Assembly: GCA_964016885.1 (NCBI GenBank)
Contig: OZ024758.1
Coordinates: 6,448,001 to 6,512,000, forward strand
DNA length: 64,000 bases
Source: Eledone cirrhosa
Lineage: Eukaryota
Reading direction: 5' to 3'
Part shown: piece after piece, positions 1 through 61,575 of the stretch
How the letters are laid out: every line of letters begins with the position of its first letter
Numbering within the stretch: the stretch's first letter is position 1
Notes under the pieces: model-generated
Seen by the model: the letters and a program-made list of their open reading frames with translations, nothing else
Told to the model about the DNA's origin: nothing
Databases searched by the model: none
Translations under genes and position numbers: made by a program

Positions 1-89
1 CGACGGCTATTTCTGGACTGTAGCCACTCTACTACCGAAGTATTGAGTGCGTTATGGTTCATCTGGTTCCTTACCACACCTCCTTTGTT
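1..89. mobile_element. Family A short element (Penelope-like remnant), inverted junction, truncated by window start
   Basis: cgacggctatttctggact followed by the reversed tail (...ggttccttaccacacctcctttgtta) and (TA)n; homologous to 29569-29765 and 38801-39060. Confidence 0.6.
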
Positions 90-109
90 ATATATATATA
101 TATATATAT

Positions 110-227
110 ATATTTATTAAAATAACAGATTAAAGTTTAAGCAAAGAATCGCTGCTTTCACCCTTAACGGGATCTTCTGAAGCAGCGATTCTTTGCTTAA
201 ACTTTAATCTGTTATTTTAATAAATAT
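110..227. repeat. Perfect 48-bp inverted repeat with 22-nt spacer, next to (TA)n
   Basis: 110-157 is the exact reverse complement of 180-227. Confidence 0.9.
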
Positions 228-1226: not shown

Positions 1227-3453
1227 TTACGATTATTCTTCGCCCACTTATTTCTGTGAAGGTCACGGATGGAGAGTCTACAAACGTTGATTCCAGAGTG
1301 TCCTGTAAGATGCCACCGTCTCCAGTTGATCCGACTCGATCCCCAAGAGAGATCAACCGAACTCATCGATTGTTATTCAATCATCTTGTTAGGGGTCTAC
1401 TCCTGGGTCTCCTGCCGGTTGGTTTCGCCTGTAAAATCTGTCCAGTGACTCGTTCCTGAGACATTCTAACCACATGTCCCTAGTATCGGAACTGTGATCG
1501 CTCAATTCGGAGAAGTATCAACTCTACCTGAAGCGACTCTCTGATCTCTGAGCTAGAAATCTGTCCAGTGACTCGTTCCTGAGACATTCTAACCACATGT
1601 CCCTAGTATCGGAACTGTGATCGCTCAATTCGGAGAAGTATCAACTCTACCTGAAGCGACTCTCTGATCTCTGAGCTAGAAATCTGTCCAGTGACTCGTT
1701 CCTGAGACATTCTAACCACATGTCCCTAGTATCGGAACTGTGATCGCTCAATTCGGAGAAGTATCAACTCTACCTGAAGCGACTCTCTGATCTCTGAGCT
1801 AGAAATCTGTCCAGTGACTCGTTCCTGAGACATTCTAACCACATGTCCCTAGTATCGGAACTGTGATCGCTCAATTCGGAGAAGTATCAACTCTACCTGA
1901 AGCGACTCTCTGATCTCTGAGCTAGAAATCTGTCCAGTGACTCGTTCCTGAGACATTCTAACCACATGTCCCTAGTATCGGAACTGTGATCGCTCAATTC
2001 GGAGAAGTATCAACTCTACCTGAAGCGACTCTCTGATCTCTGAGCTAGAAATCTGTCCAGTGACTCGTTCCTGAGACATTCTAACCACATGTCCCTAGTA
2101 TCGGAACTGTGATCGCTCAATTCGGAGAAGTATCAACTCTACCTGAAGCGACTCTCTGATCTCTGAGCTAGAAATCTGTCCAGTGACTCGTTCCTGAGAC
2201 ATTCTAACCACATGTCCCTAGTATCGGAACTGTGATCGCTCAATTCGGAGAAGTATCAACTCTACCTGAAGCGACTCTCTGATCTCTGAGCTAGAAATCT
2301 GTCCAGTGACTCGTTCCTGAGACATTCTAACCACATGTCCCTAGTATCGGAACTGTGATCGCTCAATTCGGAGAAGTATCAACTCTACCTGAAGCGACTC
2401 TCTGATCTCTGAGCTAGAAATCTGTCCAGTGACTCGTTCCTGAGACATTCTAACCACATGTCCCTAGTATCGGAACTGTGATCGCTCAATTCGGAGAAGT
2501 ATCAACTCTACCTGAAGCGACTCTCTGATCTCTGAGCTAGAAATCTGTCCAGTGACTCGTTCCTGAGACATTCTAACCACATGTCCCTAGTATCGGAACT
2601 GTGATCGCTCAATTCGGAGAAGTATCAACTCTACCTGAAGCGACTCTCTGATCTCTGAGCTAGAAATCTGTCCAGTGACTCGTTCCTGAGACATTCTAAC
2701 CACATGTCCCTAGTATCGGAACTGTGATCGCTCAATTCGGAGAAGTATCAACTCTACCTGAAGCGACTCTCTGATCTCTGAGCTAGAAATCTGTCCAGTG
2801 ACTCGTTCCTGAGACATTCTAACCACATGTCCCTAGTATCGGAACTGTGATCGCTCAATTCGGAGAAGTATCAACTCTACCTGAAGCGACTCTCTGATCT
2901 CTGAGCTAGAAATCTGTCCAGTGACTCGTTCCTGAGACATTCTAACCACATGTCCCTAGTATCGGAACTGTGATCGCTCAATTCGGAGAAGTATCAACTC
3001 TACCTGAAGCGACTCTCTGATCTCTGAGCTAGAAATCTGTCCAGTGACTCGTTCCTGAGACATTCTAACCACATGTCCCTAGTATCTGAACTGTGATCGC
3101 TCAATTCGGAGAAGTATCAACTCTACCTGAAGCGACTCTCTGATCTCTGAGCTAGAAATCTGTCCAGTGACTCGTTCCTGAGACATTCTAACCACATGTC
3201 CCTAGTATCGGAACTGTGATCGCTCAATTCGGAGAAGTATCAACTCTACCTGAAGCGACTCTCTGATCTCTGAGCTAGAAATCTGTCCAGTGACTCGTTC
3301 CTGAGACATTCTAACCACATGTCCGCAATATCGGAAATGTCATCTCACAATTCGGAGAAATAGCGGCTCTACCTTGAGTGACTCTCTCATCTCAGATTTA
3401 CACACTCTATCGAGTATCGTTACTCCAAAGATCCTTCGGAGGAACCCCAACAT
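1225..3453 (-). mobile_element. 5'-truncated RTE-clade LINE with an internal tandem amplification
   Basis: Minus strand reads MLGFLRRIFGVTILDRV..EMRESLKVEPLFLRI...GHVVRMSQER..GQILQAKPTGRRPRSRP, a typical RTE C-terminus; ends in a (TAA)-like tail. Confidence 0.85.
1434..3324. repeat. Tandem array of 15 full 123-bp units plus a partial copy
   Basis: aaatctgtcc recurs at 1434, 1557, 1680 ... 3279; the only variant I saw is G>T at 3087. Confidence 0.95.
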
Positions 3454-29447: not shown

Positions 29448-29451
<4 letters not shown>

Positions 29452-29484
29452 ACACGCAAATTCGTGAAACGTTCCATATTTTTT
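29448..29484 (+). pseudogene. U6: U6 snRNA 3'-terminal fragment (retrocopy)
   Basis: GATGACACGCAAATTCGTGAAaCGTTCCATATTTTTT matches the conserved U6 3' end with one mismatch. Confidence 0.9.
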
Positions 29485-29539
29485 ACGAGGGCGGTGTCCC
29501 AACGGGGCCTCAGCCGAATGGCTGGAACAGGTAAAAGAG

Positions 29540-29568
<29 letters not shown>

Positions 29569-29570
<2 letters not shown>

Positions 29571-29762
29571 ACGAAGGAAATGTGGTAAGGAACCAGGTGG
29601 ACCATAACGCACCAAAGTACTCAATACTTGGGGTAGTAGAGTGGGTAATAGGAACCAGTAAGACCCCGACGGCTGAGCTCAAGCCGTTTCGACGGCTAAT
29701 TCTGAGTCCAGAATTAGCCGTCGAAACGGCTTGAGCTCAGCCGTCGGGGTCTTAATGGTTCC

Positions 29763-29765
<3 letters not shown>
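29569..29765. mobile_element. Family A fold-back element with hammerhead 3' half
   Basis: 57-bp arms (29648-29704 and 29709-29765, one mismatch); GAAACGGCT-TGAGCTC-AGCCGTC; (TA)n on both sides. Confidence 0.7.
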
Positions 29766-29793
<28 letters not shown>

Positions 29794-38800: not shown

Positions 38801-39059
38801 ATAGGAACGAGTAGGACCCCGACGGCTGAGCTCAAGCCGTTTCGACGGCTAGTTCTGGACGTTATGGTCCAGCTGGTTCTTTACCACATTTCCTTCGTTA
38901 TATGTATATATATATATATATAACGAAGGAAATGTGGTAAGGAACCAGATGGACCATAATGCATCAAAGTACTCAATACTTAAGGTAGTAGAGTGGGTAA
39001 TAGGAACGAGTAGGACCCCGACGGCTGAGCTCAAGCCGTTTCGACGGCTAATTCTGGAC

Positions 39060-39060
<1 letters not shown>
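38801..39060. mobile_element. Two family A elements in (TA)n, the first with an inverted junction
   Basis: 38801-38900 and 38921-39060; both break at ...ttctggac. Confidence 0.7.
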
Positions 39061-39141
<81 letters not shown>

Positions 39142-61454: not shown

Positions 61455-61457
<3 letters not shown>

Positions 61458-61575
61458 CGAAGGGAGTGTGGTAAGGAACCAGGTGGACTATAACGCACCT
61501 GAGTACTCGATACTTAGGGTAGTAGAGTGGGTAATAGGAACGAGTAGGACCCCGACGGCAGACCTCAAGCCGTTT
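61455..61575 (-). mobile_element. Family A element, truncated at the GAAAC motif
   Basis: Homologous to 29569-29690; adjoins (TA)n. Confidence 0.7.

What the first reader, a model, noticed from the sequence alone, without database searches (positions are those of the whole stretch)
29569..29765. Microsatellite-dwelling fold-back elements broken inside a hammerhead ribozyme (family A, 5 copies)
Seen: copies at 1-89, 29569-29765, 38801-38900, 38921-39060 and 61455-61575, all in (TA)n. The element reads agtccagaattagccgtc-GAAAC-GGCT-tgagctc-AGCC-GTC-ggggtc: GAAA, a perfect 6-bp stem III with a palindromic loop, and a GUC cleavage triplet. Four copies stop at nearly the same point ~18 nt upstream of GAAAC, where the stem II loop would be, and three then continue with an inverted piece of their own tail. 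Established: Penelope-like elements carry minimal hammerheads in their pseudo-LTRs, often form inverted termini, and some clades (Neptune) favour microsatellites. Inference: a non-autonomous Penelope-dependent family whose cDNA reproducibly stalls or snaps back in the ribozyme, so copies lack the CUGANGA half.
Basis: partly seen in the sequence, partly recalled or inferred. Interest (0 to 1): 0.75.

Follow-up and report, generated by a model that had tools for sequence, protein, structure and literature searches.

The report
Jumping-gene RNA starts inside its ribozyme
These short hairpin-like repeats are cut-off copies of a Penelope-like jumping gene with tens of thousands of copies in this genome, and the places where they stop suggest that most were likely copied from an RNA that begins in the middle of the element's self-cutting ribozyme, a few from RNA likely cut by that ribozyme, and the long copies from an RNA with neither end, possibly a circle.

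Summary
The five copies are stubs of an autonomous 3.54-kb Penelope-like element (717-aa RT plus endonuclease, Hydra-clade motifs, not Neptune), with more than 52,000 ribozyme-bearing arms genome-wide. Long copies carry the missing half as a U3-A8 hammerhead (UUGANAA), not CUGANGA. Of 138 arms reaching helix II, 115 stop 33-50 nt before the cleavage site, with a sharp edge at -45. But none of 38 copies reaching the same structure after copying the ORF stops there, so the fold is not the barrier. Stops peak at an initiator-like A (-41), often with an extra G, 29-31 nt below a TATA-like box: likely run-off at a capped RNA start inside the ribozyme. A second class ends exactly at the predicted cleavage site, often on both arms, which is indirect evidence of cleavage in vivo. 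Long and tandem copies need a template with neither end (circle or read-through). No RNA data were available. The scan noted run-off stubs before in other genomes, but upstream of the hammerhead. New variant of a known kind.

The parts
29570..29704 (-). Copy 2, tail arm: element positions -37 to +98 (3' arm of helix II, GAAA, helix III, GUC, 3' arm of helix I, 80-nt tail)
29705..29765 (+). Copy 2, short inverted arm: -41 to +20; begins at the initiator-like A, and the G before it (29704) is shared with the other arm
29723..29745 (+). GAAA, helix III with palindromic loop and GUC; predicted cleavage between 29745 and 29746
   Evidence: sequence; fold of a whole copy
29542..29569 (.). (TA)n target, left flank of copy 2
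29763..29787 (.). (TA)n target, right flank of copy 2 (TAT shared with the arm end)
1..19 (-). Copy 1, end of the short arm (stops at -41; the arm starts about 41 nt before the window); older subfamily
21..89 (+). Copy 1, tail arm from +21 to +98 with small deletions
38801..38860 (-). Copy 3, short arm -40 to +20
38860..38899 (+). Copy 3, tail piece +59 to +98, joined through 1 shared base; lacks the sequence that the short arm holds
38922..39064 (-). Copy 4, single tail arm -45 to +98 joined directly to (TA)n
61456..61575 (-). Copy 5, single tail arm from about -22 to +98, ending in a T run at GAAA; older subfamily

Best explanation
The copies are 5'-truncated, often head-to-head insertions of an autonomous 3.54-kb Penelope-like retroelement with Hydra-clade motifs, and most are likely run-off reverse transcripts of a capped RNA predicted to start inside helix II of the element's hammerhead ribozyme. 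Steps: (1, shown) arms end at two fixed sites, +18/+20 and +98/+100, in (TA)n; (2, inferred from PMC11167929) the protein nicks both strands and primes at these two internal sites just upstream of the ORF start; (3, inferred) the main template is a Pol II transcript starting at A(-41), less often A(-45), so cDNAs run off after about 60 or 140 nt, often gaining a cap-templated C, and the two cDNA ends or a cDNA end and the target are joined with trimming and short insertions; (4, inferred) such a transcript carries only the 3' half of the ribozyme at its 5' end and could not cleave there in cis; (5, inferred) a minority of templates hold the whole ribozyme, are cut after GUC and give arms ending exactly at +1; (6, inferred, least certain) long and tandem copies come from a template with neither end, most likely a re-ligated 3.5-kb circle.
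For: Parent: intact 717-aa ORF from ATG at +191, units of 3,528-3,546 bp in tandem arrays; tail continues into the ORF start; 345 exact tail-ORF junctions. Hotspot: 49 of 90 tail-anchored arms end at -53..-34; 115 of 154 arms at -50..-33. Sharp edge: 5,158 arms hold C(-46), about the number that hold the whole 5' half (5,338); only 117 diverge at -49..-51. Peak: 7,005 matches diverge after -41, 1,579 after -42, 3,317 after -40, 1,530 after -45. Not a structural stall: 0 of 38 copies that reach the ribozyme after at least 1.5 kb of ORF stop there, against 9 of 10 copies primed within +146..+939 (Fisher p about 5e-9 on the script's 0/39 vs 9/1). Extra G: 102 loci with the exact junction (AT)n-G-AGTCC; cDNA-side C:T after -41 is 43:11 of the first 100 rows, 15:30 after -42, 6:16 at the +1 end; all three counted by hand. 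TATA-like T at -29 to -31 from A(-41). Cleavage: 19 of 47 distinct arms ending between +5 and about -10 end at +1 (by hand); 18 of 30 sampled arms, with 12 of 15 partners also starting at +1/+2; 106 both-strand matches to +1/+1 palindromes in one subfamily. The youngest subfamily folds as a hammerhead.
Against: No RNA data: the start site, the cap, cleavage and the circle are all read from DNA copies. No compensatory base-pair change in 16 representative ribozymes (0 pairs changed on both sides, not above shuffles); Rfam found no hammerhead; several subfamilies do not fold as a hammerhead at minimum energy and the fold is no more stable than shuffles (z 0.13). The C excess is modest when all AT-only flanks are counted (54 C vs 46 G of 100 at -41, p 0.12 against -42); many of those G rows belong to a subfamily with templated C(-42), and C also leads at -40 (47:30). 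My own small locus sample showed no clear G excess at -41 (5 unexplained G, 5 unexplained C). Junction microhomology blurs end positions by a few bases. About 26 of 100 long arms carry C3 opposite A8, which should impair cleavage, yet that lineage spread. Seven of the 38 long copies stop 83-163 nt upstream of the cleavage site, which could mark linear RNAs from upstream starts and not a circle; arrays with alternating variants may have grown at DNA level.
Confidence: 0.72

Rival explanations
1. The reverse transcriptase stalls or snaps back at the folded ribozyme.
For: Breakpoints lie in the 3' arm of the long helix II; many junctions are small hairpins such as a recurrent 7-bp stem (22 of 100 rows); self-priming was proposed for Penelope palindromes (PMC3846280, passages).
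Against: 0 of 38 second encounters stop there; the edge is at the top of the stem, after it is unwound; a second class ends exactly at +1; inverted arms often hold sequence missing from the other arm (window copies 1 and 3).
Confidence: 0.07
2. The template does end at -41/-45, but the end is made by an RNase or small-RNA cut in loop II, not by transcription initiation.
For: The edge sits beside loop II; run-off and the second-encounter control fit any physical end; position -49 in that loop differs between the two arms of one insertion in 8 of 33 pairs against 2.15% background.
Against: Ends peak at A in initiator-like words with a TATA-like box at the right distance; the added base is C here but A/T at the +1 end; a pLTR promoter is established for Drosophila Penelope (PMC2377424, section 15).
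Confidence: 0.15
3. Same as the best explanation for the stubs, but long and tandem copies come from long linear read-through RNAs and DNA-level expansion, with no circle.
For: Seven long copies stop at -83..-163; two arrays alternate between two unit variants; ribozyme mutants did not affect insertion in vitro for an anole element (PMC11167929).
Against: Linear RNAs from the element's own promoter should give ORF-bearing copies that begin at -41 or +1; none of 41 long copies does.
Confidence: 0.3
4. A non-autonomous mini-element or retrozyme family that is copied as a fold-back unit.
For: Very high copy number; some junctions recur exactly.
Against: Sequence is collinear with the autonomous element; junctions are diverse and the same junction recurs in different subfamilies; no tandem short units with whole ribozymes in this family.
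Confidence: 0.03

Closest known systems
Hydra clade of C-terminal EN+ Penelope-like elements (PMC8557442, section 11 read, plus passages)
   Same: RWK-type motif (RWR here, RWK in most aligned relatives), DKT, CxCX5C linker, CxxC and CxH in the endonuclease, (TA)n targets, hammerhead in the pLTR, inverted 5'-truncated partner and tail.
   Different: Unit 3.54 kb (described as generally under 3 kb); hammerhead has U3-A8, not a canonical core; tail 80 nt against 30-40 bp; more than 50,000 arms; no truncation hotspot described in the parts read. Supplements with sequences were not opened.
Poseidon element of Anolis in vitro (PMC11167929, parts 1-2 of 4 read)
   Same: Both target strands are cut and extended; two internal priming sites define the tail; shortening the RNA 5' end shortens the product.
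   Different: There no RNA-seq reads began or ended at the cleavage site and the start site was not mapped; here genomic arms end exactly at +1 and at -41/-45.
Metazoan PLE hammerheads incl. the U3-A8 variant of Schistosoma Cercyon (PMC4209133, parts 1-2 of 4 read)
   Same: Type I, short helix I, enlarged helix II, palindromic helix III region, U3-A8 core, mostly solo or inverted truncated copies; circle model proposed.
   Different: Helix III is 5-6 bp here, so it may work as a monomer; helix II carries a second stem-loop; the paper gives no in vivo evidence and does not place a start site in the ribozyme.
Drosophila virilis Penelope pLTR promoter (PMC2377424, section 15 and passages)
   Same: Promoter with initiator in the pLTR drives the downstream unit.
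   Different: Its start lies 46 bp upstream of an intron whose end maps to the 5' end of helix I (PMC4209133), so upstream of the ribozyme; here the predicted start is inside helix II, and the named downstream element was not seen.
Animal non-LTR retrozymes (10.64898/2026.07.22.740005, part 1 of 5 read)
   Same: Type I hammerhead, link to PLE pLTRs, rolling-circle model.
   Different: Retrozymes are non-coding tandem units with whole ribozymes; these stubs hold half a ribozyme and belong to a coding element.

Membership tests
EN+ Penelope-like element | Single ORF with RT and C-terminal GIY-YIG-type endonuclease | tested here: met
   717-aa ORF with YRDD and YIG; 402 relatives at E<=1e-20, one with Pfam RVT_1 at 2e-7. 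The query itself had no Pfam or PDB hit, so the endonuclease call rests on motifs.
EN+ Penelope-like element | Partial-tandem pseudo-LTRs | tested here: met
   345 tail-ORF junctions; arrays of 2-5 ribozyme-bearing units
EN+ Penelope-like element | Inverted 5'-truncated partner and optional tail | tested here: met
   Inverted partner in 59 of 90; TA run starts at +18 in 52 and +98 in 55 of 132 arms
EN+ Penelope-like element | Target-site duplication | tested here: inconclusive
   Cannot be read inside (TA)n
Hydra clade | RWK, DKT, CxCX5C linker, CxxC and CxH | tested here: met
   RWR 37, DKT 117, CNCPDRSIC 572, CNLC 670, CKH 698; conserved in relatives; features
Hydra clade | No CCHH motif in the endonuclease | tested here: inconclusive
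   None seen by eye in the alignment; no reference alignment to compare
Hydra clade | Insertion in (TA)n | tested here: met
Hydra clade | Generally shorter than 3 kb; canonical hammerhead | tested here: not met
   3.53-3.55 kb; U3-A8 core. Both are descriptive traits in the paper, not diagnostic ones.
Hydra clade | Groups with Hydra RTs in a tree | not tested
   No named reference proteins in hand
Neptune clade | CX2-5CxxC linker | tested here: not met
   Linker is CxCX5C
Type I hammerhead ribozyme | Three helices around YUGANRA, GAAA and NUH | tested here: met
   Minimum-energy fold of the youngest subfamily; N7 varies (G, U, A) while flanking core bases hold; 93% of cells paired
Type I hammerhead ribozyme | Compensatory covariation | tested here: not met
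   0 pairs changed on both sides in 16 closely related sequences
Type I hammerhead ribozyme | Self-cleavage after NUH | tested here: inconclusive
   Indirect only: arms end exactly at +1; no assay possible
Non-autonomous element or retrozyme | No coding parent; tandem short units with whole ribozymes | tested here: not met
DNA transposon / MITE | Fixed terminal inverted repeats and fixed internal length | tested here: not met
   Arms end at two different sites, centre junctions vary, arm lengths from 20 nt to kilobases

The most novel reading that the evidence does not exclude
The element's core promoter is written into helix II of its hammerhead, which splits its RNAs into two fates: the capped messenger carries only half a ribozyme at its 5' end and yields protein and abortive stubs, while RNAs with whole ribozymes are cut after GUC and closed into a 3.5-kb circle that is the only template for full-length and tandem copies. 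The genome would then hold a countable record of all three RNA species, including in vivo cleavage by a Penelope-type hammerhead.
Probability: 0.4. Interest if true: 0.82.

Novelty: new variant of a known kind. Interest (0 to 1): 0.66.

Why it matters
How Penelope-like elements replicate is open: whether their hammerheads cut in vivo, whether a circular RNA is the template, and how head-to-head copies form. The one in vitro study read here found no RNA ends at the cleavage site. This family gives base-level predictions (start at -41/-45, cut at -1/+1, priming at +18/+20 and +98/+100, a 3.54-kb circle), young intact units to test them with, and a control (first against second encounter) that can be applied to any Penelope-like family. 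It also explains tens of thousands of short hairpins that would otherwise be filed as MITEs or unknown repeats.

Tried and rejected
Rfam scans gave no hammerhead hit (window, where only the best 150 of 287 rows were shown; whole ribozyme). Pfam and PDB gave nothing for the ORF. No RNA holder listed. Contigs of two of the four runs of one study show the same ends at +20 and +98/+100 and the drop in depth across helix II, but may be the assembly's own sample, so not counted as independent. Strand transfer from the run-off end with the cap base kept: only 7 matches genome-wide with G at -42 in read-through arms, 3 of them at one locus; not supported. Misincorporation at -49 on every lap: no change between units in 7 arrays, all of the subfamily where -49 varies least; left open. 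Canonical CUGANGA core: 4 of 48. One search printed positions offset by 1,397; one search failed and was redone. In one search two of six arms at -51..-100 are whole arms with indels and one of 17 long arms is a self-match. In one search one 'long pass' (L429) is two pieces and was dropped (39 to 38), one 'long before' (L419) is not long, and four long rows are one array. Literature searches for an earlier report of the hotspot, cap G or in vivo cleavage found none; the library lacks most subscription papers; Lunse et al. (PMC5785218) is not held; two searches were irrelevant papers. Supplements of PMC8557442 and PMC4209133 were not opened and may hold this family or its ribozyme. That RTs copy a cap as C, and the initiator and TATA consensus words, are recalled, not from a call.

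Full report
Coordinates are given relative to the predicted hammerhead cleavage site (+1 = first base after GUC). The window lies in a 3.0-Gb microsatellite-rich animal genome, G000.

Observation. The five copies are real and lie in (TA)n. Four stop at -37 to -45 and three have an inverted partner. In copies 1 and 3 the two arms do not overlap: one holds about -41..+20, the other only +21..+98 or +59..+98. A 24-mer from the ribozyme's 3' half has 52,348 exact matches, reversed control 0; the tail end has 25,045.

Parent element. Three of the first 30 related loci continued upstream into the missing half. Long copies encode an RT and a C-terminal endonuclease. Young tandem arrays have units of 3,528-3,546 bp with an intact 717-aa ORF from ATG at +191 in three of seven arrays and 721 aa in a fourth; the 'tail' is the start of the 5' UTR. 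The protein has RWR, DKT, CxCX5C, CxxC and CxH, the traits given for the Hydra clade (PMC8557442 section 11), not the Neptune linker. No tree was built, and the ORF itself has no Pfam or PDB hit.

Ribozyme. The 5' half has 5,338 matches; of the first 100, by hand, 67 read UUGANAA, 26 CUGANAA, 2 UUGANGA and 5 other. Canonical CUGANGA occurs in 4 of 48 G8-bearing matches. U3-A8 is a described PLE variant (PMC4209133). The youngest subfamily folds as a type I hammerhead with extended helix I and a long, two-part helix II; others do not at minimum energy, Rfam does not detect it, and there is no covariation among 16 representatives.

Ends. The TA run begins at +18 in 52 and at +98 in 55 of 132 arms, with TAT shared between element and target. 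This matches two internal priming sites on two target strands, as shown in vitro for an anole element (PMC11167929).

The hotspot. Of the first 90 tail-anchored copies on contig C1, 49 end at -53..-34, 31 earlier and 10 beyond -100; 59 have an inverted partner. With subfamily-matched references 115 of 154 arms end at -50..-33, 16 earlier, 23 later (see Tried and rejected for three doubtful rows). Genome-wide, arms holding C(-46) number 5,158, about the same as arms holding the whole 5' half, and only 117 diverge at -49..-51: the edge is at -45. Matches diverging after -40, -41, -42 and -45 number 3,317, 7,005, 1,579 and 1,530 (the -41 figure includes about 8% read-through arms of a subfamily with C at -42, and microhomology shifts some ends).

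Stall or RNA end. If the fold stopped the enzyme it should do so at every encounter. I examined 70 of 345 tail-ORF junctions. Of copies that reach helix II after at least 1.5 kb of ORF, 0 of 38 stop in the hotspot (35 independent loci); of copies whose 3' end lies within +146..+939, 9 of 10 do. So the barrier belongs to a class of template, not to the structure. A(-41) and A(-45) sit in initiator-like words (consensus recalled) and a TATA-like run begins 29-31 nt upstream of A(-41). An extra C on the cDNA end, that is a G before A(-41), is common: 102 loci have the exact junction (AT)n-G-AGTCC; C:T is 43:11 after -41, 15:30 after -42 and 6:16 at +1 ends, by hand on the first 100 rows each. Against this: with all AT-only flanks C:G is only 54:46, C also leads at -40 (47:30), and my small locus sample was even. 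I read this as a capped Pol II start, likely but not shown.

Second end class. Among 47 distinct arms ending between +5 and about -10, 19 end at +1 (by hand; three could be CpG decay). Of 30 sampled tail arms (927 matches) with a base other than G at -1, 12 are point changes and 18 end at +1; 12 of the 15 with a partner have it starting at +1 or +2. One subfamily alone gives 106 both-strand matches to short palindromes centred at or within three bases of this site, most at +1/+1. This is what a ribozyme-cut 5' end would leave; it amounts to a few percent of arms. The two arms of one insertion usually share their end class, which suggests one RNA, or RNAs from one locus, primed twice.

Third class. 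None of 41 long ORF-bearing copies begins at -41 or +1, and arrays run through up to five ribozymes. A template with neither end is needed; a re-ligated circle, as proposed in PMC4209133 and reviewed in PMC6765202 (passages), fits best, but long read-through RNA and DNA-level expansion are not excluded: seven long copies stop at -83..-163 and two arrays alternate between two variants.

Unexplained. Position -49 in loop II differs between the arms of one insertion in 8 of 33 pairs against 2.15% per site (binomial 4e-7 before correction for 346 sites), yet is constant within seven arrays. The C3/A8 lineage spread although its core is mismatched.

Prior art. Each part is known separately: PLE hammerheads with U3-A8, pLTR promoters, inverted partners, tails and two priming sites. 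Ten paper searches found no report of a start site inside the ribozyme, of the first-versus-second-encounter contrast, or of genomic ends at the cleavage site; coverage is limited and supplements were not opened. Earlier scan notes describe run-off stubs in other genomes, ending upstream of the hammerhead; none matched this sequence. I did not check those notes on their own DNA.

Verdict. Stubs of a Hydra-type Penelope-like element (about 0.95 for PLE, 0.85 for the clade); run-off at an RNA 5' end inside the ribozyme and not a stall (about 0.87); that end being a capped start (about 0.72); cleavage in vivo (about 0.8); circle (about 0.5). New variant of a known kind; interest 0.66.

Noticed in passing
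window 115-225: Near-perfect fold-back with about 45-nt arms between (TA)n runs directly after copy 1; a different repeat family, a similar end is seen in the flank of L017.
   Followed up: no
window 29448-29545: Another insert of about 95 nt between two (TA)n runs just left of copy 2; not this family.
   Followed up: no
window 1434-3393: 15.9 copies of a 123-bp unit, 99% identical.
   Followed up: no
G000:C1:91.47-91.49 Mb and C1:437.20-437.21 Mb (L441-L444): Tandem arrays whose 3.5-kb units alternate between two sequence variants, as a doubled dimer or a dimeric template would give.
   Followed up: partly
loop II, position -49, e.g. L069, L071, L073, L239, L245, L246, L258: One base differs between the two arms of the same insertion in 8 of 33 pairs, mostly G against T; cause unknown.
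   Followed up: partly
L405-L407, L411, L432, L455, L475, L487: Copies whose 3' end lies inside the ORF start (+146 to +918), several near +210 and +315: minor priming sites downstream of the tail.
   Followed up: partly
e.g. G000:C28:34216836-34217072, C1:266208016-266208079: A recurrent junction of the -42 arm end with an AT-rich 11-mer, partly as a 38-bp tandem repeat, 28 of 54 rows.
   Followed up: no
long arms such as L032, L036, L066, L073: A whole lineage (about 26 of 100 long arms) has C3 opposite A8 in the ribozyme core and still spread.
   Followed up: partly
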